DNA of 20,000 nucleotides. Source: an uncultured virus (IMG/VR IMGVR_UViG_3300008120_000127) (lineage: Duplodnaviria > Heunggongvirae > Uroviricota > Caudoviricetes). The notes under the pieces are model-generated. The model was not told where the DNA came from and ran no database searches. It saw only the letters and a program-made list of their open reading frames with translations. Below, piece after piece: positions 1,517 to 20,000 of the stretch. The stretch is taken from IMG/VR virus record IMGVR_UViG_3300008120_000127. One strand, given 5' to 3'. Positions within the stretch are counted from its first letter, which is position 1, and every line of letters begins with the position of its first letter. The position numbers and the translations under genes were made by a program.

Positions 1517-4261
1517 TTAAGACCAATCTTCCCCTTCCATGTTTTGCAAATCGAAAACAATTCCGGCTGTTAAGTTATTTCTAATAATATTATATATTTC
1601 TTGTGGCGAAGTAAAGTTTTGTTTAACATTTTCAGGCACTCTAATTATAACATATCCACCGTTCATATAGGATGTTCCGCTTGCGGGATAGGTATCCCAA
1701 TGGGATAGAATTTCAGGAACTTCGTTAATTATATCTGAGTTTTCAATGTCAGCCTTAATTCCGCCTCCTCTTAATCTTAAGTCAAATAATTTAGGTTTAA
1801 CTTTATTTGGATTATTTGTAACATATATAATAGCTACACACAGGGCAAACGGATCGTAGTCTATTGATGTTTCATCAAATATTGTTGAACTATAGGTAAA
1901 ATTAACCGGATTGCTGTATTGAAATTCTGTTACTTTTTCATAACTAAATACATTTACATCAGACTGATTAGGTGAATTCTTTTTATAGATATTTTTAGGC
2001 GTCAAGTAAACATACATTGGCTCATCAAATTGTATGCTATCAGAGTTTAAAAATGGGTTTAACGGTATAGGCGTACCATTAATGTGTCTAACTAGAGAAT
2101 TTTTGTTTATTGTAGAATAATCAACTTTTACCAGTGTTGTTTCGCTGGGTATAATTCGTTTTTTGAATTTGATTAATCCATTTTCACAATCTACATCTGA
2201 TATCAACGAGTCATCGACCTTCACCCAAGGAGAATCAATCGTTGATCTAGTATAAATGTTAACTTCTTGACGGACAATTCCACCTATTGACTGACGGTAA
2301 TCTGTTTTATGATTCCAACTTAAAATTGGCGTTCTTCTTAATTTAATAGATTTACTGTCTATGATTAAAGGATTTTCGTTAACGACATCATAGTAACCAT
2401 AACCATATATCTTAGACCAAGAGACATCAGATAAATCCATTGTAGAATATTCTGCCAACATTTCTTGTCCGGAATATATGGATTTCCAATCTGTATATTG
2501 AACTGAAGATTTTATTTTAATTTTCTTATTAAAAGAACCATTAGAGATTGGGAGTTCCCATGCATCGAATTTTGACAAATTGGCGCTAATGTTATTTATT
2601 TGAACAGCGGATCCACCACCGTGCTTAACGGAATAGATTGGAGTTAAATACTTCAATGGTATTCTTGTTGGAATAAATGTTGTTGAATTATTTTGTCCAA
2701 CAAACTCGTTATCACCATTCGCTCCATCTGAGTCTAAGGCGCAAATGGCTATGTATATATTTTCAAAATTAGTAAAAGATGACCTCGTATAAAAGTCGAC
2801 ATAACTTAAAGAATGCCCTAATAGCTCTTGGGTACTTAAATCATAGAAACCATATCTAAAACCGTCAGAAGGAAGTTCATTAACTAACGAGAAATAACCG
2901 TAAGCTATATCCCTTTCTTCTTGAGAAAATGTTTGAGGATTTGACACTGATGCTGATATTTGCGCTAGTGTTGGCAGCCCTATTGGCTTGCCATTAGAAT
3001 CGCATAGAAGCAATATTCCATCACCATAATTAATTGAATTTTTTCCTTCAGGAAATATTTGTCCCAGGCGATTCTTTAATCTATAACCAGAAGAAAGGTC
3101 TATCTCAGTGGTTCTGGTAAGTGCATCTCCATAAAATGTGCTAGATGTTTCTAGTATAACATTATTTTCTTGCGTTTGCCTTATCGATATTGGTGAACCA
3201 GAAACTGTTTGACCTAGACTTGTTGTATCCGATAGAGTTAAATTTTGCAAAGAAAAAGTTCCAGCTACCACATTATTTCTAAAATTAGGAATCTTTATTT
3301 CATACTCACCAGTCAACAAGTAGTCAACACTATTAAGATTAACACCAGATTCACTGGTAAAAGTTAATTCTCTTTGATTCACTCCATCTGGAGAATAACT
3401 AAGAGATGAAACATATTGAGTTTGCTGAGCCGAAACTCTTTCTACATTGGAAATATTAATCAAGGCCGGAGAAGATGGAGTGACATCGTTTAAGGAAGTA
3501 ATAAAATTAGCTTTTACGTTAATTCTAATTGGGTCCTCATAATCTACTACCTGTGTTATATCTGGATCTTTTACCAATGCTGCAACATTGATTTCAGAAA
3601 TGCCAAACCCCTCACCCTGACCTAGGCCGTATATTCCGCCACCAACAAGATTTACCCATACATATCTTACGCTTTCTGCAGATCTTCCGTTCATTGGAAT
3701 TTCTATATTGGTTGATACCGCAGATAGATCCAGCGCCTCAATGTTTGGATATTCAAATATATTTGTAGAAAAAGATGAATGCCAACCAAAAGAAATGGCC
3801 TTATAATTTCTCCATCTAATGTCTTGATCTGGAACTATGATTATTTTTTCAACACTTAGAACTGATTGAGGTATTTCAAAAAATATTACATCAGAAGCCA
3901 GACTTGGCCCAGCAACTCCGGTGAATGTTGTTTTTCTATAGGTTTTACCAGAACCAATATCTGGCGCCAAACCCATCTCTTCAACCTTTTGTATATATTT
4001 TCTAATATCCTCTGAGGCAAACGTTTTCCAGGATTCAAATAACTGATTATCTGTTGCAATTAAATTAAGCCAATATTTGGCCAAATACCATTTAGTTTCA
4101 CTGTCAACTTTTCCGTCAATGTATCTTTGATTATTTGCAATCTGAAAAGATCTTACTGCGGAAGCGGTTGATGAACCATAATCTCCATCTACTGCTTTTG
4201 TATAGAAACCTGCAGCACCCAGTGTGTACTGTATATATTTAACGTATTCGTGCGTAGCCAT
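1517..4261 (-). CDS. 914 aa virion/baseplate protein with an N-terminal peptidoglycan-binding (PG_binding_1-like) domain
   Basis: AAGGA RBS 6 nt before ATG. The N-terminus VKYIQYTL..AGFY..AVDGDYGSSTASAVRSFQ...IDGKVDSETK..L matches the PGBD consensus. A jelly-roll-like segment follows (VRYVWVNL...FGISEINV). The C-terminus DLRLRGGG...EIYNIIRNNLTAGIVF resembles baseplate wedge protein ends. Confidence 0.8.
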   Translation of the reverse strand: MATHEYVKYIQYTLGAAGFYTKAVDGDYGSSTASAVRSFQIANNQRYIDGKVDSETKWYLAKYWLNLIATDNQLFESWKTFASEDIRKYIQKVEEMGLAPDIGSGKTYRKTTFTGVAGPSLASDVIFFEIPQSVLSVEKIIIVPDQDIRWRNYKAISFGWHSSFSTNIFEYPNIEALDLSAVSTNIEIPMNGRSAESVRYVWVNLVGGGIYGLGQGEGFGISEINVAALVKDPDITQVVDYEDPIRINVKANFITSLNDVTPSSPALINISNVERVSAQQTQYVSSLSYSPDGVNQRELTFTSESGVNLNSVDYLLTGEYEIKIPNFRNNVVAGTFSLQNLTLSDTTSLGQTVSGSPISIRQTQENNVILETSSTFYGDALTRTTEIDLSSGYRLKNRLGQIFPEGKNSINYGDGILLLCDSNGKPIGLPTLAQISASVSNPQTFSQEERDIAYGYFSLVNELPSDGFRYGFYDLSTQELLGHSLSYVDFYTRSSFTNFENIYIAICALDSDGANGDNEFVGQNNSTTFIPTRIPLKYLTPIYSVKHGGGSAVQINNISANLSKFDAWELPISNGSFNKKIKIKSSVQYTDWKSIYSGQEMLAEYSTMDLSDVSWSKIYGYGYYDVVNENPLIIDSKSIKLRRTPILSWNHKTDYRQSIGGIVRQEVNIYTRSTIDSPWVKVDDSLISDVDCENGLIKFKKRIIPSETTLVKVDYSTINKNSLVRHINGTPIPLNPFLNSDSIQFDEPMYVYLTPKNIYKKNSPNQSDVNVFSYEKVTEFQYSNPVNFTYSSTIFDETSIDYDPFALCVAIIYVTNNPNKVKPKLFDLRLRGGGIKADIENSDIINEVPEILSHWDTYPASGTSYMNGGYVIIRVPENVKQNFTSPQEIYNIIRNNLTAGIVFDLQNMEGEDWS
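4075..4252 (-). other. Peptidoglycan-binding domain (three-helix PGBD)
   Basis: V-x-x-I-Q-x-x-L ... VDGDYGSST..AVRSFQ ... IDGKVDSET, i.e. the two canonical DG-x-x-(G)-x-x-T repeats. Confidence 0.85.
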
Positions 4262-11964: not shown

Positions 11965-13134
11965 TTAATAATTTGTTCCACCCATTATAACAGAACTAAT
12001 GTTTATTGCGCCTGCTACTGGATATTTTTTAACTGTATCTAACGAAAAATCAACGAGTGGCATATTTGAGCCGTCCGCAAGCATTGCGCTTATATAGCAG
12101 CTGCGAATATAATCTGATGATAATTTAATTTGTCTTTCAATCTCTGACATAGAAACCATATCGCCTACAGTAAGCGAATTCAAGTATCTCTTCACAAAGA
12201 GCGATGCTTGGTTTCTGACTCCGCTAGCCAGATTTTCGCTCAAGCCCATCGGCAAAGTAATGGTAGCCTCTATGTTGATGCTAACTCTTTCTGCAATTCT
12301 GACATTAAATCTAACACCAATTGGCTTTACTGCACTTACAGCAACCATGACTCTTTGAGGGAGATTAGACATATCGGTAGCTGTTTCTGGTACGATTATT
12401 ACGTCACAGGAGCCAACGCCATACGTGCCCTCTCTAATTCTAACGTCCCTGACCCCTCTGACCGCTAGAGCAGCAAATCTTACAGACTCAACTGTACCAG
12501 GCGCCTTAGCCTTTATGGAAGCTATGATTCTTCTTCTAAAATTAGTGTCTGACTCTGCGCTTGTATTGGAATATACTTCTTTGGGGTTTGAGCAAAATAT
12601 AATTACTCCTGCGGGAGAAAATGCGTTATGTTTAGTAAGCGTACTTACGGGCGCCACATAGGCGTTGTCCGTAAAGTTAGGGTCAACTCTTCCGTAAGCT
12701 CTGGTAGATCCTCTGCCTATAATTACATCTCCAGCTAGCTTATAAGTATATTGTTTTGTAATAAAATTAGACACATCATTATATACTAAAGTCCCTGATG
12801 GTATAGTGACATCGGAACTATGTGGCTTGTCTATAAAAAACTGAATATTAAAAGATTCACGATCTTGACTTGAATAATCGCTAATATTTCTTCTAGTTAT
12901 GCCATATAAATCGCCTATTAAGTCAAGGTTACGACCTGATGCTGTCATTAGATCACCTTGGGTAAGGTTGAATCTTAATGCCTCATAAAGATCAGAAACT
13001 TCACTAGTGAAAGCTTCCGCAAACGCTCTAGCTATAGAGCCCGGGTAGACTGCAGATATGCCTGCGTTTTTTTGTAAGCCGTTTAAAACATTAACTAATA
13101 TATCAGCTTTATTTTTTATTCCATATATTGGCAT
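11965..13134 (-). CDS. Baseplate J-like wedge protein (P2 gpJ / Mu gp47 family)
   Basis: PGSIARAFAE, ASGRNLDLIGDLYGITR, VTIPSGTLV, AESDTNFRRRI..., GTVESVRFAALAVRGV, GSCDVII and VKPIGV are hallmark motifs of baseplate J proteins. 389 aa; AGGAG RBS. Confidence 0.92.
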   Translation of the reverse strand: MPIYGIKNKADILVNVLNGLQKNAGISAVYPGSIARAFAEAFTSEVSDLYEALRFNLTQGDLMTASGRNLDLIGDLYGITRRNISDYSSQDRESFNIQFFIDKPHSSDVTIPSGTLVYNDVSNFITKQYTYKLAGDVIIGRGSTRAYGRVDPNFTDNAYVAPVSTLTKHNAFSPAGVIIFCSNPKEVYSNTSAESDTNFRRRIIASIKAKAPGTVESVRFAALAVRGVRDVRIREGTYGVGSCDVIIVPETATDMSNLPQRVMVAVSAVKPIGVRFNVRIAERVSINIEATITLPMGLSENLASGVRNQASLFVKRYLNSLTVGDMVSMSEIERQIKLSSDYIRSCYISAMLADGSNMPLVDFSLDTVKKYPVAGAINISSVIMGGTNY

Positions 13135-13136
13135 TA

Positions 13137-13517
13137 TTATACTCCTAAAGTTTGACTAACAGAAAGAATTATTGGCTCATTAATATCAGATATTATATGA
13201 ATATCAAATCTAATCACATCTCTGCTAGTTGGTACTGCCTTAATTTGAATACCCCTACCCTTAAAAAGGCCTTCCTTTTGAATGCCAGCCATTATCAATG
13301 CCTTACCAAACTCAGCCGTTTCTTTTGTTTGTGGTAAGCCATAAAGCCTAGATAAGTCAACGCCAAGCTGAGGATATATATAGAAGTCTCCAGGCTCAGT
13401 CATTATTCTTAAGTAAATTTGCTGGACATCTTCATGCATAGAGGAGGGTGCTAGGGCAATGTCTTTATTGCCATCTAACATAAAGTCTCCATTTAGCGTT
13501 AAATACAAATCACTCAT
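13137..13517 (-). CDS. gp25/gpW-like baseplate wedge (sheath initiator) protein
   Basis: 126 aa with GD-F-x-L...DIAL, QQIYLRIMTEPGDFYIYPQLGVDL (the T-x-x-GE...P-x-x-G motif). It lies immediately upstream of the J-like gene; AAGGA RBS. Confidence 0.88.
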   Translation of the reverse strand: MSDLYLTLNGDFMLDGNKDIALAPSSMHEDVQQIYLRIMTEPGDFYIYPQLGVDLSRLYGLPQTKETAEFGKALIMAGIQKEGLFKGRGIQIKAVPTSRDVIRFDIHIISDINEPIILSVSQTLGV

Positions 13518-14154
13518 TTGTTTCCTTTAAGGCGAGGCTATGTGCCTCCTCAAAACTGTTTCCACTTTTCATTAGTTCGACCATTAGCAATATGTGTTCT
13601 TTTGAGTGATCAGTTTGATATATTTCAAGCAGCCCTATTTGCTCATCGGTCAACCCAGTCAAATCATACTCTGACTCATATGTTTGCTGAACTTGCTCTT
13701 GCTTACTAGCAAAACCAAACTCACCTATTATAGTAATGGGAGTTTGAGTTTCTTGATCCGCATACTCTTCTATGCCATTTAAATAGTAAGCTATACCATT
13801 TGTAGCTGAATGAATATTTTTATGATTAATTTTAACAAGAGTTGGCTCTATATAGGAAGATGCGCAGTAGTTAAAGTTGTAGCTGTTCCATCTTAAACCA
13901 TCTTCTTTTGTAAAAAATCTAACAGAATCTCCAAATAAAGAAATTGATTTAGATTTTGCGCTTATAACAATACCTATGCCCGGTGCTGCAAATATCTCTA
14001 TGTCGCCACGGTCATTAAGTCTAATAAAACTTGACAGATCGGGGTGCGTTAAGCCAACTTCTCTTTCTGAAAATTCTTTTCTTTTTCTAATCTCAGCGCC
14101 TATTGGAATAGTTGGCTGCTGATAATTATCTCTTTCGATTGACTCTTTACTCAT
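13510..14154 (-). CDS. Putative spike beta-sheet/beta-helix protein (C-terminal half of a gpV/gp45-like spike)
   Basis: REVGLTHPDLSSFIRLNDRGDIEIFAAPGIGIVISAKSKSISLFG shows short beta-strand/turn periodicity like spike beta-prisms. ATGA overlap with the OB-fold gene; position between the OB-fold gene and gp25. Confidence 0.6.
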   Translation of the reverse strand: MSKESIERDNYQQPTIPIGAEIRKRKEFSEREVGLTHPDLSSFIRLNDRGDIEIFAAPGIGIVISAKSKSISLFGDSVRFFTKEDGLRWNSYNFNYCASSYIEPTLVKINHKNIHSATNGIAYYLNGIEEYADQETQTPITIIGEFGFASKQEQVQQTYESEYDLTGLTDEQIGLLEIYQTDHSKEHILLMVELMKSGNSFEEAHSLALKETNE

Positions 14155-14522
14155 GAGCAGACCATAAAATTGGGTATTCCAGTGTTAACAGTATTGTAAT
14201 ATCTATAGCTGCCCATATTTCCCGCATCGTTGTAGAAATTTATAATATATGGCTTAGCTTCATTGTTGTCGCGAAATCCCACTAGGCACCTGTTTCCTGG
14301 TGTTGGGGCGACAGATTGAACACCATTGGTTACTGGACAAACTACGTTTTTTATAACATTACCAATATTCTGGGAGTACTGGTCTTCAAGTATTACAACG
14401 GCTGTGTTTTGACGCTTATCATAAGATGCAATGACTCCGGGCCTACTTCTGGCCTTTTGCATTTCCGTTACATCTATTTGGTCTTGTATTTTTTTGTCAA
14501 ATTTAGGGTAATTAACTGGCAT
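14151..14522 (-). CDS. Spike N-terminal OB-fold protein (gp5/gpV/gp138-N-like)
   Basis: PGVIASYD...TAVV...IKNV..P...GV...P.PG.RCLVGF.DNN...PYII matches the gp5/gpV OB-fold consensus. GGAG RBS. Confidence 0.78.
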   Translation of the reverse strand: MPVNYPKFDKKIQDQIDVTEMQKARSRPGVIASYDKRQNTAVVILEDQYSQNIGNVIKNVVCPVTNGVQSVAPTPGNRCLVGFRDNNEAKPYIINFYNDAGNMGSYRYYNTVNTGIPNFMVCS

Positions 14523-14530
14523 TTTTTCTC

Positions 14531-16717
14531 CTAGCTATCTCCGTTTGCATAATTTCTTGGAAAAACTTCTCCATTCATCCATCTTTCTATATATTTAGCT
14601 GAGGAATTAGCAACTATTGGCAAGAAGACGGATGGATCAGTCGCATATACATTCCTTAACCATGTCTTAAGATCTGCTGCTGTTTTTCCTGTTCTATCAG
14701 AATAAATATCTGCTGCGTCCTGAAACTTTACGCCACCATTCATCCAGCCATAATCTTTGTACCCGTCTCCCCATACCTGGAACTGATACCCATCAAGCTT
14801 TGGATCACCAAAGGCTGGAAGCTTACCAGTACGCGCAGTATAAGCCATCCACGCTTGATTTCTAGGTATCCAAACCCTTCTATCAACTAGTGGCCTCATT
14901 TCTTCTATTACTTTATTTTTAACTCCCCCATTATAAAATAAAGAAAGGTAGTATTTATCATTTATCATTTTATTATAAGTATCTTGAGTTGGGACTGTTT
15001 CTCCAGGATAAACCAAACTCCAGTTTGCTGAAGCAATAAGCCACCCCTGCATTTGCGTTTTGCCAGTTGCATTTGTTAACTCATATGTCTTAGTTCCGTG
15101 AGCCAATCCATCATATCTTCCATACTTTTTGTTAGTTTCAGAATATCTTTTGTAGCCACCCGCACCCATATTGATCTGCAAAAATCCTAAAGAAATAAAA
15201 TCGTCATCACCAATATAAAACCCTGTAGGTCTGCAATTACTCTCTCTAACCGCAACGGCAGCGAGACAGGCTGCTAGTTCCGGCGAGCACCAGGTTTGAG
15301 TTAACACATCATACACTCCTTCTAGTCCAAGACTAAAATCCCATTGGCCATAATAGTTTGCATCTAACATATCTGCAGGGCTAGATCCAGAACCACCATA
15401 TCCGCCACCTCGCATCTGTTTTTCAATCTGTCTTTCCAGGCTGTCTGCACTACCGCTTAGGTTTGACGGACGAGATGTTACGTTTGTTGCTGAAGTAACT
15501 GGCTCTAGACCATCTATAATTCCCAAGTCTAATTTATCACTAACAACAATTGAATCTGGGATTAAATATTGTGGAACCTCTGATAACGCCTCTATTAAGA
15601 TATCCAGGGCAGAGCCGTATACAGGAACGTGATTTGGAGTGCCGTTAGTTGTCTCAACATTAAAGGATTCTTCATTTATTCTTCCGACTTCTCGTATATC
15701 TATAGCTCTACCAAAAGTGTGATCTCCTGGGGTAAATTTATCTGGCTTAATGTATTGAGGTTGATTAGGGTCTCTTCCTGCGCCAAATCCACCTGCTATA
15801 TAATAGTTCTTTTCGTGCAGAAGTATTAACAATTCTATTAGAGCTGCGGATAGAAAGGCATTTGATATTCCGAGTGTGGGCGATTGTAGTATGAGATCGT
15901 CGCTCAGAATTCTTTGACTACTATCTACCTTAGAATCAGGAAAATGAGTCGAGGAACCGTTATAAACATCTCTCGGATCAGCTGCCCACTCATTTGGAAT
16001 ATCAAATCTAAATCCGCCCATAGAGCTATCGTCACTTATTTGTGACTCATATTTAGATCTTAATAAAGTCAACCTTTCCTGATACCATCCCTTTTCCTCT
16101 AATGTAAGTTCCGCTATTAAGGCTACATCTCTTCTTCCCGCACTCTGCATCTCGCCTATTCCCGGAGAGCCAGAACCGCCAGAACCCCTATTGTTATCAG
16201 ATGGATCATCATCCTGTGATGAAGAGATCATTGTGTTTCTTATAATTTGCAAGGAATTTTCCACAAAAGTATTTCCAATGTTTTTTCCAACCATACTTTT
16301 TGACAAAATTTTATTCCATGCGGCGGCTCCTGTTAAGGTTGCATTATTTGAGCCAGTTGGATTACCTTCTCCGTCAACACTAAAATCTGTTGCTTCCGGA
16401 TTAGGTATTGAGATTGTGGCATTTTCAGGAGTAGTAGCAGATGCAGCTGCAGCTCCGCCTGTAATTAGCCCATTTAAAGATCCAGATATGCTTGCATTCA
16501 TCGCTGCTATTGGATACTTTTTACTTCTATTAAGAAGGTCTCCTGCCATAACTCCAGTCACATCAAATGAACTTAAGGTCCTACCCGTAGCGGGAGGAGC
16601 TAATGAAGCACTGGTATTGAGGACTGGCGATTTTCCGCCAGGATAAAAATCACCATGTATTGTTTTTGCAAAAGAGGCACTATCAGAAAGGGATTGCGCA
16701 TTTATACTAAAAGACAT
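14531..16717 (-). CDS. Tail-associated peptidoglycan hydrolase: M15/Hedgehog-DD-peptidase-like plus SLT/lysozyme-like domains
   Basis: GDHTFGRAIDI fits the H-x-x-G-x-A-x-D Zn motif. LAAVAVRESNC...SLGFLQIN...PRNQAWMAY...FQVWG fits the SLT/GH23 motifs (catalytic ES, GL-x-QI). Domains are separated by G/S-rich linkers. AAGGA RBS. Confidence 0.78.
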   Translation of the reverse strand: MSFSINAQSLSDSASFAKTIHGDFYPGGKSPVLNTSASLAPPATGRTLSSFDVTGVMAGDLLNRSKKYPIAAMNASISGSLNGLITGGAAAASATTPENATISIPNPEATDFSVDGEGNPTGSNNATLTGAAAWNKILSKSMVGKNIGNTFVENSLQIIRNTMISSSQDDDPSDNNRGSGGSGSPGIGEMQSAGRRDVALIAELTLEEKGWYQERLTLLRSKYESQISDDSSMGGFRFDIPNEWAADPRDVYNGSSTHFPDSKVDSSQRILSDDLILQSPTLGISNAFLSAALIELLILLHEKNYYIAGGFGAGRDPNQPQYIKPDKFTPGDHTFGRAIDIREVGRINEESFNVETTNGTPNHVPVYGSALDILIEALSEVPQYLIPDSIVVSDKLDLGIIDGLEPVTSATNVTSRPSNLSGSADSLERQIEKQMRGGGYGGSGSSPADMLDANYYGQWDFSLGLEGVYDVLTQTWCSPELAACLAAVAVRESNCRPTGFYIGDDDFISLGFLQINMGAGGYKRYSETNKKYGRYDGLAHGTKTYELTNATGKTQMQGWLIASANWSLVYPGETVPTQDTYNKMINDKYYLSLFYNGGVKNKVIEEMRPLVDRRVWIPRNQAWMAYTARTGKLPAFGDPKLDGYQFQVWGDGYKDYGWMNGGVKFQDAADIYSDRTGKTAADLKTWLRNVYATDPSVFLPIVANSSAKYIERWMNGEVFPRNYANGDS

Positions 16718-16726
16718 AATTTATCC

Positions 16727-19700
16727 TTAACTACCGATTCTTCTAGGAATCAAAGCCGATTCCTCTGCACTAATCACCGCATCGCCTTCTATTTGTAGCT
16801 GCTTTGCGTATACTGTAGCGAGATTATTTGTTACTAGTTCCCAGTTCAAGGTAACTGCATGTCCGTCTTCATAATACTCGTCCCAGAATATAGTAGGCCA
16901 CTCTCTTGTCTTATTGTAAGTAGCTTCTAGAACTTTATATTGAACTAAATCATTATATAGTTTATTTGTCTGCTGATTTGTTAATCCATATCTAACACTC
17001 GTATCAAGCAAGACGGATATTGGAGCAGTATAAACTAACCCTAATACGGACAATGCGCTCAATATAGATTCTTTTTTCACGAAAAGGGGAGAATCTTGAT
17101 ATATTGAATTAAAGAAAGAATCCTTAATTTTTTGCTCGGCTCCAGCACCAGTTTGGTTCCCTATAAAGCAGCTTTCTACAAAGTCCTTTGCCGACTGAAC
17201 TATCGACTCTGGCTGGTAATACCATACTGTTCCAAGAGTTCTCTTTGAGTCTGTAACATCTTTGGTATAATTAGCTACAGTATTTTGTTCAGCGCCAGCT
17301 TCAAAATCTGACTCAGATATAACAGAGCTGGACGCAGCGTTACTTATTCTTATTCTTAAAACAACCAATCTATTTTCCAATTTAGACTGAACAAATATTT
17401 TGGCTTTACCTCCAGGAGTAGTAATTGATGTCATTGTTGTTGAAGGGGTCGAAGAATCGCTATAACTTACTCCTAGATCACCATCATTTGAGGTAACGGT
17501 AAATGTATTTGTTTCGCCTGAGTTTATGCCATCAAATCTTACGGTAAATGTTGCACCAGAGATAACATCTTCTACATCAAACGTGTCACCATCTTTGAAT
17601 TTAGTTATCTTAGCGATAACGCTAAATAATGATGGCTGTAAATCAGTTCTATCTGGCCCCAAGCCACTCAACTGCAACACCCTTGCATGAACAAGAGCAT
17701 TTTCATAGTCTATGTATCTAACTAGATCTGTTATCTGCTTTTCTTGCCAGCCAAGACTCTTAAGGAGATCATCACTTCTAACAAAAACATTTCCTTCTGG
17801 AGTTCTAACCTTAGTTCTTGCGCCGAGAAGTCCAGGTAGCAATACTTTAGAGTGGTGCTTGCCAACGACCATTCCCTGATTGTAGGATAAGCCTGCATCC
17901 ATTGGTTGACCATTTTTATTTAGGTATTGGACATAGCAGCCGTGTTGATCTAGCACATTATCCCTAATCCATTTCCATCCCTTCCATGCCAATTGGCCAA
18001 CTATCGGTACCGACAAAGCAATTCCGAAACCGGCTGCACCAGTTGCTCCAGCTCCCGCCGCCGCAGCGGCAACGCCTACGCCACCAGTTAGCGCCGTTGT
18101 CATTCCCTGAAAAACTGTTCTACTCGCAGAAGAACCATATTGTTGAATGACAGTTTCTGCTCTTTTTGGAAGAGTCGTAGCAGTTTGATTTGCCATTACA
18201 TCTTTAACTAAAGCCGTAGATCCGTGAGTAAACTGCAGACCGCCAATCATTTGTGGGCCTAAAGCGTCTGATAGTCCATCTATAGATATATTTCCTCCTA
18301 CATTTATTCCAGTATTTGAGGCCATTATATTATCCATGTAGAAACGTGTATCATTTCTAAGATTTTGCACAGTGAACCAAGAGTTGATCCAAGAAGTCAA
18401 GAACCATCTAGCGGGATCATTTACGGTCACAAGCGCATTCGGAGTAATTGATGTAATGTATCCCATTTCGGGAGTAAAATGATGGACAACTTGCTCTACC
18501 TCAAAAATTCCATACATTCTTTCGTAAACATCTGACAAATAAACCAAGTCATGCGGACGAATATCTGCATTACCTATAACTATGAGCTCTCCACCATATA
18601 TATCTTTGATGGATTCCTTCAAGTGAGCTAAGGCTATTCTTTTTGCGGAAAGTTCATCAGGTGTTCCTTGAACATTCTTCGCAATTCCTCTAATCGTTTC
18701 CATTGGATGCATGATTGGATGAAGTACGCCCAAGAAACCTGATCCTACAAAATTATCATAATACAAACCTGTTTCAACAGTTTTTTCAGTTTGACGCTCT
18801 GCTGGAGCACCTTTATCTAAAGCTACTGTAATTGGATATTTACCATCTGAAACTGCGGTAACTACGGTTGACACGCCATTCAAATTCTCTTGAATCTGAT
18901 TTGATATAATATGAGAAAATGAACTTAGATAATGGATTCTTTGGAAGGGCTGTCTGATTTCCAATACGGGTTCGCCATATTCGCGAGTAAACGGATTATC
19001 AACAGCCCTTAATAAGGTGCCCTCTCTTCCTAATGAATAATAAATAGAGTCATTCAGAACTTTGTTTAAAATATGTGCTTGCTTACTAAAATTGCCAACC
19101 TCTGAGATGGCATAACCCATTTGCATCATGGAAAGCTTGAACATTCCAAGAAGACCAGAAAGACCGTCACCTATTGCGGTCATAATTGGTCCGATATTTC
19201 TATCGTAGAAATTACCAATATCTTCAAGTGTTCCAGAAATAAATGTCGTAGCACCAGTTCCCTCAGATTTTGTTGAAACTAATAATTGAAGGAACTTATT
19301 GTCATCCTTAGCGTACTGGCTATATGGATTTATGAAAGCCTCAAATATCCTATCGATAGGTTTGAATGACCACTGACCGTCAGATCCTCCGCCTCCACTC
19401 GTAATTAAACCTCTTTTACGGTTAGGCTTCAAAACCAACCATGCTCTGCCATAGGCTGAGTTCCAAAGCTTTTGCCTAAATAAACCAACCATTAAAAGGA
19501 AAAGCTGTTTTGGAGTTTTAATTTTTTCATTTAGAGCAATGGCTTCTTCTGGTTTTTTGGAATTATCTAACGCGTATTCAAGAATTGTATTAATTACTGG
19601 AGAGTCAAAAAAGTTTTCTCTAATACCATTAAGTGCATCAGCAATTGTTGAGTTGAAGTATTGAATGATTCCGGCGTCTGACTCGTTTTCTGCGGCTATT

Positions 19701-20000
19701 AAATCTATATAATTTTTCCTTATAAACTCTACTGCTTTTCTTCTTTCAATTCCATTAGTTATGGGAACGCCTTGTCCACCTAGTTGTGGATTGTTCGGAA
19801 TATTAAAATAGTCAGCGCCCAGCAGGATTGCCAATTCATCGACAGCTGTATTTTCGGTATCAGCCAGTCCAGCAATGGGGATGTTTGAATCCTCAAAGTT
19901 TTTAAAACTATCCTCAATAGAAGATCCTAATATTCTAGAAAACTCTTCTGGGAAAGGATCAATGGACTCTGGATCCATTCCGTAAACTTTTGCAAATATT
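16727..20000 (-). CDS. Baseplate hub-like protein (gp27/GpD/VgrG-type) fused to a C-terminal thermonuclease (SNase) fold; 5'-partial
   Basis: The frame stays open beyond the listed Met to the window edge (IFAKVYG-MDP). Hub C-terminal barrel: GELIVIGNADIRPHDLVYL...GIFEVEQVVHHFT...GYITSIT. SNase motifs: KITKFKDGDTF, VRFDGINSGE, KRTLGTVW, NWELVTNNLATVY. Confidence 0.8.
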   Translation of the reverse strand, partial: IFAKVYGMDPESIDPFPEEFSRILGSSIEDSFKNFEDSNIPIAGLADTENTAVDELAILLGADYFNIPNNPQLGGQGVPITNGIERRKAVEFIRKNYIDLIAAENESDAGIIQYFNSTIADALNGIRENFFDSPVINTILEYALDNSKKPEEAIALNEKIKTPKQLFLLMVGLFRQKLWNSAYGRAWLVLKPNRKRGLITSGGGGSDGQWSFKPIDRIFEAFINPYSQYAKDDNKFLQLLVSTKSEGTGATTFISGTLEDIGNFYDRNIGPIMTAIGDGLSGLLGMFKLSMMQMGYAISEVGNFSKQAHILNKVLNDSIYYSLGREGTLLRAVDNPFTREYGEPVLEIRQPFQRIHYLSSFSHIISNQIQENLNGVSTVVTAVSDGKYPITVALDKGAPAERQTEKTVETGLYYDNFVGSGFLGVLHPIMHPMETIRGIAKNVQGTPDELSAKRIALAHLKESIKDIYGGELIVIGNADIRPHDLVYLSDVYERMYGIFEVEQVVHHFTPEMGYITSITPNALVTVNDPARWFLTSWINSWFTVQNLRNDTRFYMDNIMASNTGINVGGNISIDGLSDALGPQMIGGLQFTHGSTALVKDVMANQTATTLPKRAETVIQQYGSSASRTVFQGMTTALTGGVGVAAAAAGAGATGAAGFGIALSVPIVGQLAWKGWKWIRDNVLDQHGCYVQYLNKNGQPMDAGLSYNQGMVVGKHHSKVLLPGLLGARTKVRTPEGNVFVRSDDLLKSLGWQEKQITDLVRYIDYENALVHARVLQLSGLGPDRTDLQPSLFSVIAKITKFKDGDTFDVEDVISGATFTVRFDGINSGETNTFTVTSNDGDLGVSYSDSSTPSTTMTSITTPGGKAKIFVQSKLENRLVVLRIRISNAASSSVISESDFEAGAEQNTVANYTKDVTDSKRTLGTVWYYQPESIVQSAKDFVESCFIGNQTGAGAEQKIKDSFFNSIYQDSPLFVKKESILSALSVLGLVYTAPISVLLDTSVRYGLTNQQTNKLYNDLVQYKVLEATYNKTREWPTIFWDEYYEDGHAVTLNWELVTNNLATVYAKQLQIEGDAVISAEESALIPRRIGS
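16810..17620 (-). other. Staphylococcal-nuclease-like (SNase OB-fold) domain with large insertions
   Basis: All four ordered SNase blocks are present: DGDT; R-x-x-GI-[D/N]-x-x-E; R-T-L-[G/A]-x-V; N-x-x-LV-x-x-x-LA-x-V-Y. Confidence 0.8.

What the first reader, a model, noticed from the sequence alone, without database searches (positions are those of the whole stretch)
16727..18900. Baseplate hub fused to a hydrophobic segment and a C-terminal SNase nuclease: an 'evolved-VgrG'-like virion-delivered nuclease
Seen: after the hub C-terminal barrel (about 18440-18600), the chain continues ~570 aa through a Gly/Ala hydrophobic stretch to a complete set of SNase motifs. Equivalents of staphylococcal nuclease D19/D21 (DGDT), R35, E43 and R87 are retained, and D40 is N. 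Established: gp27/GpD hubs sit at the tail-tube tip and are the structural equivalent of the VgrG N-terminus. Evolved T6SS VgrGs carry C-terminal effectors, while phage hubs more usually carry wall hydrolases. Inference: this particle may carry a nuclease at its tip, either to inject it (host DNA/RNA attack, anti-defence) or to digest extracellular/biofilm DNA. Alternatively the OB-fold could simply bind the genome end during ejection.
Basis: partly seen in the sequence, partly recalled or inferred. Interest (0 to 1): 0.82.

Follow-up and report, generated by a model that had tools for sequence, protein, structure and literature searches.

The report
Nuclease-fold domain ending giant phage hub
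The last 300 residues of a 3,706-residue tail-tip (baseplate hub) protein of an uncultured giant phage fold like staphylococcal nuclease and keep its key catalytic residues, a pairing first noted on this hub lineage in 2007 whose purpose is still untested.

Summary
On the minus strand, window 16727-19999 is the 3' end of one ORF. It contains a hub-homology core, a 44-residue Gly/Ala hydrophobic stretch, an invariant ~120-residue module of unknown fold, and a ~300-residue SNase-like domain. That domain carries DGDT, R814, N819 (at the D40 position), E822 and R913. The window cuts the gene: in a near-identical 193-kb virus record the ORF is 3,706 aa.

The SNase fold is supported. The AlphaFold2 model has pLDDT 84-96 there. 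Foldseek's top PDB hits are staphylococcal nuclease, and VIA-align gives Z 10.6-10.9. Pfam does not detect the domain. A ~100-residue helical insert splits it.

The hub identity rests on homology and collinearity with Bacillus phage 0305phi8-36 gp147-gp151. My direct fold and profile tests of the hub were inconclusive.

The module plus SNase unit is conserved across the giant-hub family, not swapped. The catalytic pentad is kept in 56 of 69 representative clusters, and one clade has lost it.

Hardies et al. (2007) already reported an SNase-related domain on a hub of this lineage. This scan has also flagged the same family on other DNA (7 windows, 6 genomes). I rate it a new variant of a known kind. 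The function is untested.

The parts
16727..19999 (-). 3' part (C-terminal 1,090 codons plus stop) of a giant baseplate-hub gene. The gene runs off the window and is 3,706 aa in the near-identical record G001.
   Evidence: Searches give the ORF, which is 5'-open. Searches give G001:C1:126398-129646 at 100% identity (rounded), with a 3,706-aa ORF at L002:399-11516(-). PHROG phrog_20474 scores 4.3e-120 for the whole protein.
18344..19048 (-). Hub-homology core (residues 311-545 of the window's protein).
   Evidence: tblastn matched 8 phage records, and only over residues 311-544. Among them are 0305phi8-36 ORF147 and Acinetobacter phage ME3, both annotated as baseplate hub protein. BLASTP to gp147 residues 1180-1415 gives 5e-17. 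This region is almost invariant among 43 homologues. The fold is not verified: AF2 pLDDT is about 30 here.
18179..18301 (-). Conserved linker (residues 560-600), with G562, H585, G586 and D593 conserved in at least 90% of sequences.
   Evidence: Alignment of 63 sequences.
17987..18118 (-). Gly/Ala-rich hydrophobic stretch (residues 621-664), glycine-zipper-like. Its length varies among relatives.
   Evidence: Kyte-Doolittle 19-residue means reach up to 1.47. It is present in most of the 62 homologues, and its length varies. One homologue is named 'outer membrane lipoprotein SlyB' by its source. Membrane insertion is inferred, not tested.
17630..17986 (-). Invariant module of unknown fold (residues 665-783). 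Motif: WKGWKWxRDNVLDQHG[CA]YxQYLNKNGQPMDAGL..NQGMVVGxYH.
   Evidence: It is the most conserved part of the C-terminal region. It is found in 86 representative clusters, and 57 of those are proteins of 2,300 aa or more by my count of the table. No family or PDB sequence match was found, and the ESM Atlas gave no usable hit. AF2 pLDDT is 33-69.
17213..17629 (-). SNase-like domain, N-terminal part (residues 784-922). It contains strands 1-5 and helix 1, DGDT 796-799, R814, N819, S820, E822 and R913. It has two extended loops (829-846 and 879-912).
   Evidence: AF2 block-mean pLDDT is 84-96, apart from loops. Foldseek on PDB gives a best E of 3.6e-4 at prob 1.00, and all listed hits are staphylococcal nuclease or SND1. 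VIA-align gives 1sta_A Z 10.6, rmsd 3.3, 110 aligned residues, 23% identity. NCBIfam 'calcium-activated nuclease EcnA' scores E 4.3e-4, 20.3 bits, far below its cut-off. BLASTP to the phage's stand-alone SNase gives 4e-4, and hhalign gives prob 60%, E 8.4e-5.
16910..17212 (-). Helical insert splitting the SNase fold (residues 923-1023).
   Evidence: DSSP on the model shows helices at residues 924-1025. VIA rows that match only model residues 269-369 are unrelated helical proteins with Z of 5.7 or less. The insert is absent from the stand-alone SNase in the alignment. More distant relatives have tails of only 161-238 aa after the module.
16790..16909 (-). SNase-like domain, C-terminal part (residues 1024-1063). 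W1027, P1028, W1032, Y1036, D1038, G1039, L1044, N1045 and E1047 are conserved.
   Evidence: Conservation is. The stretch AVTLNWELVTNNLATVY aligns with the stand-alone SNase's C-terminal helix region. VIA alignments span model residues 127-409.
16727..16789 (-). Poorly conserved, low-confidence C-terminal tail (residues 1064-1083) and the stop codon.
11965..14522 (-). Downstream baseplate genes collinear with 0305phi8-36 gp148-gp151: a 123-aa gpV-like protein, a 214-aa protein, a 126-aa gpW/gp25-like protein and a 389-aa Baseplate_J protein.
   Evidence: BLASTP gives 1e-4, 8e-6, 3e-15 and 6e-14 to gp148, gp149, gp150 and gp151. Pfam Baseplate_J scores 1.2e-10 and PHROG phrog_6 scores 3.4e-36.

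Best explanation
The window holds the C-terminal 1,090 residues of a 3,706-residue central baseplate-hub protein. The phage is an uncultured ~193-kb contractile-tailed phage whose baseplate genes are related to those of Bacillus phage 0305phi8-36.

After the hub core the chain carries one conserved unit with three parts:
- a Gly/Ala hydrophobic (glycine-zipper-like) stretch;
- an invariant ~120-residue module of unknown fold;
- a divergent staphylococcal-nuclease-type domain, split by a ~100-residue helical insert.

The nuclease domain keeps the metal-binding and catalytic set D796, D798, R814, E822 and R913, with N819 at the D40 position.

What is shown: the domain architecture, the SNase fold, the retained site, the family-wide conservation of the unit, and the hub homology.

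What is inferred:
- The protein sits as a trimer at the tail-tube tip, so the virion would carry three copies of the unit.
- The unit occupies the place where gp147 carries its wall hydrolases.
- On sheath contraction the unit is pushed into the host envelope, and the hydrophobic stretch inserts into a membrane.
- The nuclease domain then cleaves nucleic acid at the entry site. The most likely substrate is host DNA or RNA, as a first strike or counter-defence.
For: SNase fold:
- AF2 pLDDT is 84-96 over the domain.
- The Foldseek PDB hits listed are all staphylococcal nuclease variants plus SND1. Twelve hits have E of 0.001 or below, and the best is 3.6e-4.
- VIA-align searched 48,161 chains. 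Ranks 1-15 are all SN-fold proteins (Z 10.9, 10.7 and 10.6 for Tudor-SN, SND1 and SNase 1sta). Unrelated rows start at Z 5.7.
- After one homologous hub protein, the BFVD hits are mostly viral thermonucleases.

Sequence links:
- NCBIfam 'calcium-activated nuclease EcnA' scores E 4.3e-4.
- The same phage record has a bona fide stand-alone SNase (PF00565, 52.7 bits; phmmer 1e-6 to S. aureus nuclease).
- That stand-alone SNase aligns to the hub domain by BLASTP at 4e-4 and by hhalign at E 8.4e-5.
- It also has N at the D40 position.

Selection on the site. The pentad is kept in:
- 40 of 63 rows;
- 42 of 56 distinct C-termini from IMG/VR loci plus the query;
- 56 of 69 representative clusters at 50% identity.

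Hub identity:
- PHROG phrog_20474 scores 4.3e-120.
- gp147 homology is seen.
- Collinearity with gp148-gp151 is shown.
- gp147 was assigned as a T4 gp27 / P2 gpD homologue in PMC2147016 (section 14 read in full).
- BFVD's top hit is a UniProt entry named 'Baseplate hub protein', at 40% identity.

Conserved unit:
- 165 IMG/VR stretches encode the module.
- In 79 of the 80 loci kept, the module lies about 420-470 residues from the stop.
- 41 of those frames are closed at 2,999-3,758 aa.
Against: - Pfam does not detect SNase in this protein. Of 37 homologues scanned (23, 14), one gave a sub-threshold hit: 15.5 bits against a cut-off of 21.
- A profile of the family finds no SNase among PDB sequences.
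- D40 is N here, and I could not inspect active-site geometry because no coordinates were available to me.
- A substantial minority of relatives lack the catalytic set while keeping the domain: 18 of 63, 13 of 56 and 13 of 69. Two of those 13 are truncated or fragmentary. Catalysis is therefore dispensable in some lineages.
- The unit is conserved rather than exchangeable. That fits a core structural or ejection role at least as well as an effector role.
- The hub fold was not confirmed directly. AF2 pLDDT is about 30 in the core, and hhalign against P2 gpD gives only E 0.2.
- Presence in the virion is not shown for this protein. In the 0305phi8-36 record, gp147's annotation lacks the 'identified by mass spectrometry' note that its neighbours carry.
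- No evidence bears on the compartment, the substrate or the metal.
Confidence: 0.55

Rival explanations
1. The SNase-fold domain is a non-catalytic OB-type binding or structural element. For example, it could hold the leading DNA end, gate the tube exit, or plug the hub until contraction. The conserved acidic and basic residues would then serve phosphate or metal binding, not cleavage.
For: One whole clade has T22 to E, D40 to I/V/L, E43 lost and R87 to K, yet it keeps the fold-defining motifs and the rest of the unit. The unit is conserved, not swapped, like a core machine part. The nearest structural neighbours after SNase are non-catalytic SN-like domains of Tudor-SN and extended Tudor proteins. 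Those domains are also split by an inserted domain.
Against: The full D/D/R/E/R set is kept in 56 of 69 representative clusters spanning very divergent sequences. That is hard to explain without selection on catalysis. In eukaryotic non-catalytic SN-like domains these residues are generally not kept (recalled, not tested here).
Confidence: 0.25
2. The domain acts outside the cytoplasm as an envelope-side phosphodiesterase. It would clear extracellular or matrix DNA, or cut another phosphodiester polymer of the wall, while the tail tip traverses the envelope. This would be analogous to the wall hydrolases at this position in gp147.
For: It occupies the position of gp147's NlpC/P60 and M23 domains. 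One homologue (P0040) has a LysM peptidoglycan-binding domain inserted in a loop of its SNase-like domain (Pfam 4.8e-7; placement). Classical SNase-type enzymes are secreted or membrane-anchored and need millimolar Ca2+ (recalled). [quoted passage not shown]
Against: LysM was seen in 1 of 37 homologues scanned with Pfam. I know of no SNase-fold enzyme acting on non-nucleic-acid polymers. The phage's stand-alone SNase, which shares N at D40, has no evident signal peptide by eye. That hints that this subtype can work in the cytoplasm.
Confidence: 0.15
3. There is no real domain. The SNase motifs are a chance resemblance in a low-complexity C-terminal extension.
For: Pfam gives no hit. HMMER against PDB sequences gives no hit.
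Against: A confident AF2 model has SNase as its top structural match in three libraries. The motifs are conserved across hundreds of relatives. Sequence links to a true SNase exist.
Confidence: 0.02

Closest known systems
BtI1 (Bacillus thuringiensis israelensis prophage-like element) homologue of 0305phi8-36 hub gp147, described by Hardies, Thomas and Serwer 2007 (PMC2147016)
   Same: It is a hub protein of the same lineage carrying a domain related to staphylococcal nuclease. The authors found its purpose 'not obvious' and proposed transfer from a stand-alone phage SNase gene (section 14 read). The record nearest this window also has a stand-alone SNase.
   Different: There the SNase-related domain is N-terminal. 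Here it is at the extreme C-terminus, behind a Gly/Ala hydrophobic stretch and an invariant module, and it is split by a helical insert. I did not see the BtI1 sequence itself.
Bacillus phage 0305phi8-36 gp147 (1,903 aa; annotated baseplate hub protein / endolysin)
   Same: The hub core is homologous (BLASTP 5e-17, residues 317-521 against 1180-1415). The downstream genes gp148-gp151 are collinear. It is also a very large hub with enzymatic domains attached.
   Different: gp147 carries an N-terminal transglycosylase and C-terminal NlpC/P60 and M23 peptidase domains. This protein is twice as long, and its C-terminus is the hydrophobic stretch, module and SNase unit. An extra 728-aa gene separates the hub from the gpV-like gene.
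UniProt A0A6J5M9K0, 'Baseplate hub protein' of an uncultured Caudovirales phage (BFVD piece 3)
   Same: It is a direct homologue of the C-terminal unit (Foldseek E 2.5e-34, 40% identity), already deposited and named as a hub.
   Different: It is only a database name. I found no description of its nuclease-like end in the papers searched.
Staphylococcus aureus nuclease A (thermonuclease; Pfam PF00565)
   Same: The fold matches (Z 10.6, rmsd 3.3, 110 of 137 residues aligned, 23% identity). The equivalents of D19, D21, R35, E43 and R87 are present.
   Different: It falls below Pfam's threshold. N replaces D40. It has two long loops and a ~100-residue helical insert. It is fused to a giant virion protein rather than being a free secreted enzyme. 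Its activity is untested.
Evolved VgrG spikes and TM-bearing PAAR/Rhs effectors of type VI secretion (recalled from the literature, not searched here)
   Same: In both cases an enzymatic C-terminal domain sits on the tip complex of a contractile injection machine. Here it is preceded by a hydrophobic stretch that could help it cross or sit in a membrane.
   Different: VgrG fuses gp27-like and gp5-like modules, and its effector domains are exchangeable. Here the spike (gpV-like) is a separate gene, and the C-terminal unit is conserved across the family.
Tudor-SN and extended Tudor domains
   Same: They have an SN fold interrupted by an inserted domain, and they are top structural neighbours (Z 6.4-10.9).
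   Different: They are eukaryotic, their insert is a Tudor barrel rather than a helical bundle, and there is no sign of common descent beyond the SN fold.

Membership tests
SNase-like (thermonuclease) superfamily | OB-type five-stranded barrel packed with three helices (the SNase fold) | tested here: met
   The AF2 domain has pLDDT 84-96. Foldseek on PDB gives prob 1.00 with a best E of 3.6e-4, all SNase or SND1. VIA-align gives Z 10.6-10.9, and ranks 1-15 are all SN-fold proteins.
SNase-like (thermonuclease) superfamily | Catalytic and phosphate-binding residues R35, E43 and R87, and Ca2+ ligands D19/D21 | tested here: met
   D796, D798, R814, E822 and R913 fall in the same alignment columns as those of the phage's stand-alone SNase. 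That SNase aligns to S. aureus nuclease. Geometry was not checked because no coordinates were available.
SNase-like (thermonuclease) superfamily | Ca2+ ligand D40 | tested here: not met
   N819 is at this position. The Pfam-positive stand-alone SNase of the same phage also has N here. Among 56 pentad-keeping representatives, 23 have N and 22 have D. The residue is therefore variable within true members.
Pfam PF00565 (SNase) as a curated family | Score at or above the gathering threshold (21 bits) | tested here: not met
   There is no hit for the window's protein or for the 3,706-aa protein. The best score among 37 homologues scanned is 15.5 bits. NCBIfam EcnA scores 20.3 bits against a cut-off of 180. 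I file the domain as SNase-fold / superfamily-level, not as a PF00565 member.
SNase-like (thermonuclease) superfamily | Metal-dependent endo/exonuclease activity | not testable with these tools
   This needs expression and assay.
gp27 / gpD / gp44-type baseplate hub | Homology to an established hub family | tested here: met
   tblastn to 0305phi8-36 ORF147 gives 1e-11, and ME3 'baseplate hub protein' is also hit. BLASTP to gp147 gives 5e-17. PHROG phrog_20474 scores 4.3e-120. The link from gp147 to gp27/gpD comes from PMC2147016, not from my own test.
gp27 / gpD / gp44-type baseplate hub | Direct profile match to P2 gpD / Pfam Phage_GPD | tested here: inconclusive
   hhalign of family profiles against P2 gpD gives E 0.2 and 0.24, over only 13-17 columns. 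Pfam gives no hit. My gpD profile had low diversity.
gp27 / gpD / gp44-type baseplate hub | Tube-like beta-barrel domains 1 and 3 (the fold) | tested here: inconclusive
   The AF2 model of residues 1-570 has mean pLDDT 53.7 and about 30 over the hub core. It is too poor to search with.
gp27 / gpD / gp44-type baseplate hub | Position in the tail/baseplate gene order (before gpV-, gpW- and gpJ-like genes) | tested here: met
   The region is collinear with gp147-gp151 and carries Baseplate_J. The upstream 1,327-aa ORF has no family hit, so the tape-measure neighbour is not identified.
gp27 / gpD / gp44-type baseplate hub | Trimer at the tube tip in the virion | not testable with these tools
No proteomics or cryo-EM exists for this phage.
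Evolved VgrG (T6SS) | gp27-like and gp5-like modules fused in one chain | tested here: not met
   The gpV-like spike is a separate 123-aa gene. No gp5-like or beta-helix family was detected in the chain.
Evolved VgrG (T6SS) | Exchangeable C-terminal effector domain among close homologues | tested here: not met
   The same module plus SNase-like tail follows the hub in all relatives examined: 79 of 80 IMG/VR loci and 69 representative tails. Only insert sizes and the catalytic residues vary.

The most novel reading that the evidence does not exclude
The hydrophobic stretch, the invariant module and the SNase domain together form an obligatory, membrane-inserting part of the genome-delivery machine. 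It would be shared by a large, almost wholly uncultured clade of giant-hub phages (86 representative clusters). On contraction, three copies would be driven into the host membrane and anchored there by the glycine zipper. They would place an active nuclease at the DNA entry port. There it could strike host nucleic acid, or a nucleic-acid-based defence, before any phage gene is expressed, or it could process the entering genome end. The invariant module would be a new fold that couples membrane insertion to nuclease release.
Probability: 0.2. Interest if true: 0.65.

Novelty: new variant of a known kind. Interest (0 to 1): 0.4.

Why it matters
Phage tail tips are known to carry wall-degrading enzymes. 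A nuclease there is rare and unexplained. This one is not an odd fusion. The unit is conserved, with its catalytic set, across a large family of uncultured ~200-kb phages, so it probably does something important at the moment of entry. If it is active, it would be a phage counterpart of the nuclease effectors delivered by contractile secretion systems, and a candidate for pre-expression host shut-off or counter-defence. The clade that lost the catalytic residues offers a natural control. The invariant module beside the nuclease domain has no known fold or family, and it is a well-defined target for structural work.

Tried and rejected
- Pfam on the window's protein, on the 3,706-aa protein and on the C-terminal 324 aa gave no SNase hit.
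- Pfam on 37 homologues gave one sub-threshold SNase hit, one LysM and one SLT.
- phmmer and a family profile against PDB sequences gave nothing relevant.
- The ESM Atlas gave no usable hit for the invariant module.
- AF2 of the hub part gave too low a confidence to search with.
- hhalign of the hub family against P2 gpD, single sequence and alignment, gave E 0.2 and 0.24.
- The search for gpD relatives returned only sequences 77-99% identical among those listed, so the gpD profile was shallow.
- Complex prediction, tried for a homotrimer of residues 600-790, was not available and nothing was folded.
- The search of earlier findings by place returned nothing for this genome.
- The paper search for 'EcnA' returned only unrelated plant papers.
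- Paper searches for a tail- or baseplate-borne thermonuclease gave no description other than Hardies 2007. For those searches I saw listings only. The single paper holding both 'thermonuclease' and 'baseplate' (PMC9376991) was not read.
- I rejected the chance-motif reading.
- I rejected the swapped-cargo reading, because no alternative C-terminal domain was found among relatives.
Full report
**What is in the window.**
All large ORFs of the window lie on the minus strand. The finding's interval is the 3' part of one ORF, 16727..19978 from an internal ATG, with no stop up to the window's end at 19999.

The window's own assembly is not held. A virus record that shares 100% of the window's sampled words (G001, 193,454 bp, CheckV 92% complete) contains the same gene as a single 3,706-codon ORF. 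The window therefore shows only the last 1,090 residues. I number residues from the window's internal ATG (protein P0001, 1,083 aa). Adding 2,623 gives the full-length numbering. The window and G001 differ at residue 75 (G versus A).

**Check of the observation.**
- The 'hub C-terminal barrel' at 18440-18600 is residues 460-514.
- The chain continues 569 residues beyond it.
- A Gly/Ala hydrophobic stretch occupies residues 621-664.
- DGDT is at 796-799.
- RFDGINSGE is at 814-822.
- KRTLGTVWYY begins at 912.

All coordinates were re-translated.

The correspondence to staphylococcal nuclease D19, D21, R35, D40 (here N819), E43 and R87 is transitive. The phage's own stand-alone SNase aligns to S. 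aureus nuclease in the alignment printed. MAFFT places the hub residues in the same columns as that stand-alone enzyme. The wild-type residue numbers are recalled, and they agree with the printed alignment.

**Is it an SNase fold?**
Sequence libraries mostly say nothing:
- Pfam gives no hit for the window's protein, the full protein or the last 324 residues.
- Among 37 homologues scanned, one has a sub-threshold SNase hit, at 15.5 bits against a cut-off of 21.
- HMMER against PDB sequences finds nothing.

Three weaker sequence signals do exist:
- NCBIfam 'calcium-activated nuclease EcnA' scores E 4.3e-4 (20.3 bits, far below its cut-off) on residues 788-874.
- BLASTP to the phage's stand-alone SNase gives 4e-4, with 18 of 51 residues identical.
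- hhalign of the family profile against that SNase gives probability 60% and E 8.4e-5.

Structure settles the question.
- An AlphaFold2 model of residues 655-1083 (50-sequence alignment) has block-mean pLDDT 84-96 over most of residues 784-1059.
- Foldseek against the PDB lists only staphylococcal nuclease variants and SND1. The best E is 3.6e-4 at probability 1.00, with TM 0.51-0.56 on the target.
- VIA-align against 48,161 representative chains puts SN-fold proteins at ranks 1-15. Tudor-SN scores Z 10.9, SND1 scores 10.7, and SNase 1sta scores 10.6 (rmsd 3.3, 110 aligned residues, 23% identity). Extended Tudor domains score 6.4-9.6. Unrelated rows begin at Z 5.7.
- In the viral library, the best hit is a homologous 'Baseplate hub protein' of an uncultured phage (E 2.5e-34, 40% identity). 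Most of the next hits are viral thermonucleases.

The fold is interrupted by a helical insert at residues 923-1023. It has two long loops at 829-846 and 879-912.

**Is the upstream part a hub?**
Evidence for a hub:
- tblastn against 50,697 phage records found 8 matches, all confined to residues 311-544. They include 0305phi8-36 ORF147 and Acinetobacter phage ME3, both annotated as baseplate hub.
- The full protein matches PHROG phrog_20474 at 4.3e-120.
- BLASTP shows the window is collinear with 0305phi8-36. The hub matches gp147 (5e-17), the 123-aa protein matches the gpV-like gp148 (1e-4), the 214-aa protein matches gp149 (8e-6), the 126-aa protein matches gp150 (3e-15), and the 389-aa protein matches the gpJ-like gp151 (6e-14).
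- Hardies, Thomas and Serwer (2007, PMC2147016; passages, section 14 read in full) assigned gp147 as a very divergent homologue of T4 gp27 and P2 gpD. It was recognisable only in domains 1 and 3.

My own direct tests were inconclusive:
- The AF2 model of the hub part has mean pLDDT 53.7, and about 30 over the core.
- hhalign of the family against P2 gpD gives E 0.2 and 0.24 over 13-17 columns.

I therefore accept the hub assignment on homology, gene order and the published link, not on a fold shown here.

**Family survey.**
- The C-terminal 524 residues have 62 relatives in the 5.8-billion-protein collection at 35-60% identity. Most cover 95-100% of the query.
- In IMG/VR, 165 stretches encode the module, and 80 loci were kept.
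- In 79 of those 80 loci the motif lies about 420-470 residues from a stop. One locus (L030) had no exact motif and was not analysed.
- Of the 79 frames, 41 are closed at 2,999-3,758 codons, 29 run off the fetched DNA, and 9 are closed at 1,231-2,202 codons. The last group suggests a split gene or sequencing errors in some relatives.
- An exhaustive HMMER search with the invariant module alone found 86 representative clusters at 50% identity (78 at E of 1e-10 or below). By my count of the table, 57 are proteins of 2,300 aa or more. The module is always followed by a tail of about 160-430 residues.
- Close relatives have tails of about 300-400 residues. Distant ones have 161-238 residues, so the helical insert is specific to the query's clade.
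- No alternative C-terminal domain was seen.

**Catalytic residues in relatives.**
The equivalents of D19, D21, R35, E43 and R87 are all present in:
- 40 of 63 aligned rows. Of the rest, 4 end before the R87 column, 18 are degenerate and 1 is broken.
- 42 of 56 distinct C-termini from the IMG/VR loci plus the query. Of the rest, 13 are degenerate and 1 is odd.
- 56 of 69 representative tails. Two of the 13 exceptions are truncated or fragmentary.

Among those 56 tails, the D40 position is N in 23, D in 22 and another residue in 11.

The degenerate sequences form a recognisable group with DGDE and RLEGIIASxxG, and with K for R87. The site is therefore under selection in most lineages and has been given up in some.

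**Other parts of the unit.**
- The Gly/Ala stretch is only moderately hydrophobic (19-residue means up to 1.47). Its length varies, and it is present in most relatives. One source names a homologue after the glycine-zipper lipoprotein SlyB.
- A second stretch of this kind lies at residues 1714-1747 of the full protein, outside the window.
- The module that follows (residues 665-783) is the most conserved part of the whole region. It nevertheless has no family, PDB or Atlas match, and it is modelled at pLDDT 33-69. Its fold and role are unexplained.

**Context that bears on function.**
- In gp147, the region after the hub core carries NlpC/P60 and M23 peptidase domains. The unit here sits in the place of wall hydrolases.
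- One homologue (P0040) has a LysM domain inserted in the loop after the E43 motif. Another (P0123) has an SLT domain within the giant protein.
- The nearest record encodes a stand-alone 132-aa SNase (PF00565 at 52.7 bits; NucI at 2e-18). That enzyme also has N at the D40 position. This fits the 2007 proposal that hub-borne enzymatic domains were copied from stand-alone phage genes.

**Most likely mechanism.**
Shown: the architecture, the fold, the retained site, the conservation and the hub homology.

Inferred: the hub is a trimer at the tube tip. Its C-terminal unit is carried in the virion and is driven into the envelope on contraction. The hydrophobic stretch then inserts into a membrane, and the nuclease domain cuts nucleic acid at the entry site. 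I put 0.55 on this as a whole. Separately, I put about 0.95 on the fold and about 0.6 on catalytic competence in this phage.

Rivals:
- a binding-only or structural OB domain (0.25);
- an envelope-side phosphodiesterase acting on eDNA or wall polymers (0.15);
- a chance resemblance (0.02).

**Comparison with what is known, and novelty.**
An SNase-related domain on a hub of this lineage was described in 2007, at the N-terminus of the BtI1 homologue, with its purpose called not obvious. A direct homologue is already in UniProt under the name 'Baseplate hub protein'.

My paper searches (listings only, apart from PMC2147016) found no other description of a tail-borne thermonuclease and no functional test.

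Earlier notes of this scan report the same family and the same reading on 7 windows of 6 other genomes. They gave me the lead to the 2007 paper, which I then read. I re-tested their fold, insert and conservation claims here.

The features that differ from the published case are:
- the C-terminal placement behind a hydrophobic stretch;
- the invariant unknown module;
- the helical insert;
- the family-wide conservation of the unit, with repeated loss of the catalytic set.

My verdict is a new variant of a known kind, of moderate interest.

Noticed in passing
window 19978-19999 and beyond (L002:399-11516, minus strand): The window cuts the gene. The full ORF is 3,706 codons in the near-identical record G001. 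A second Gly-rich hydrophobic stretch lies at full-length residues 1714-1747.
   Followed up: partly
L004:1477-1872 (minus strand; G001:C1, about 94.2 kb): A stand-alone 132-aa SNase is present in the same phage record (PF00565 at 52.7 bits; NCBIfam NucI at 2e-18). It also has N at the D40 position. By eye, the neighbouring ORF looks like a C5 cytosine methyltransferase; this was not tested.
   Followed up: partly
window 17630-17986 (minus strand): An invariant ~120-residue module has no family, PDB or Atlas match and a low-confidence AF2 model. It is present in 86 representative clusters, mostly giant proteins.
   Followed up: partly
homologues P0040 and P0123 (metagenome proteins): P0040 has a LysM domain inserted in a loop of its SNase-like domain (Pfam 4.8e-7). 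P0123 has an SLT transglycosylase domain at residues 1373-1469 of its giant hub (8.4e-12).
   Followed up: partly
window 14531-16717 (minus strand): A 728-aa ORF sits between the hub and the gpV-like gene. It has no Pfam or NCBIfam hit and only one weak PHROG hit (E 0.0083, function unknown). It has no counterpart at that place in 0305phi8-36. By eye it has Gly-rich runs and motifs reminiscent of wall hydrolases; this was not verified.
   Followed up: no
window 1517-4261 (minus strand): A 914-aa ORF begins with a PG_binding_1 peptidoglycan-binding domain (Pfam 4.1e-10; SleB-like N-terminus). The rest has no family.
   Followed up: no
IMG/VR loci L045, L051, L057, L058, L059, L067, L072, L080, L081: In 9 of 79 related loci the stop-to-stop frame holding the module is only 1,231-2,202 codons. 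In some relatives the giant gene may be split, or the assemblies may carry errors.
   Followed up: no
L002:11985-15965 (minus strand), upstream of the hub gene: A 1,327-aa ORF lies where 0305phi8-36 has its tape-measure gene. It has no Pfam, PHROG or NCBIfam hit.
   Followed up: no
window about 19754-19756 (residue 75 of the window's protein): There is a single amino-acid difference between the window (G) and record G001 (A) in otherwise identical translations.
   Followed up: no
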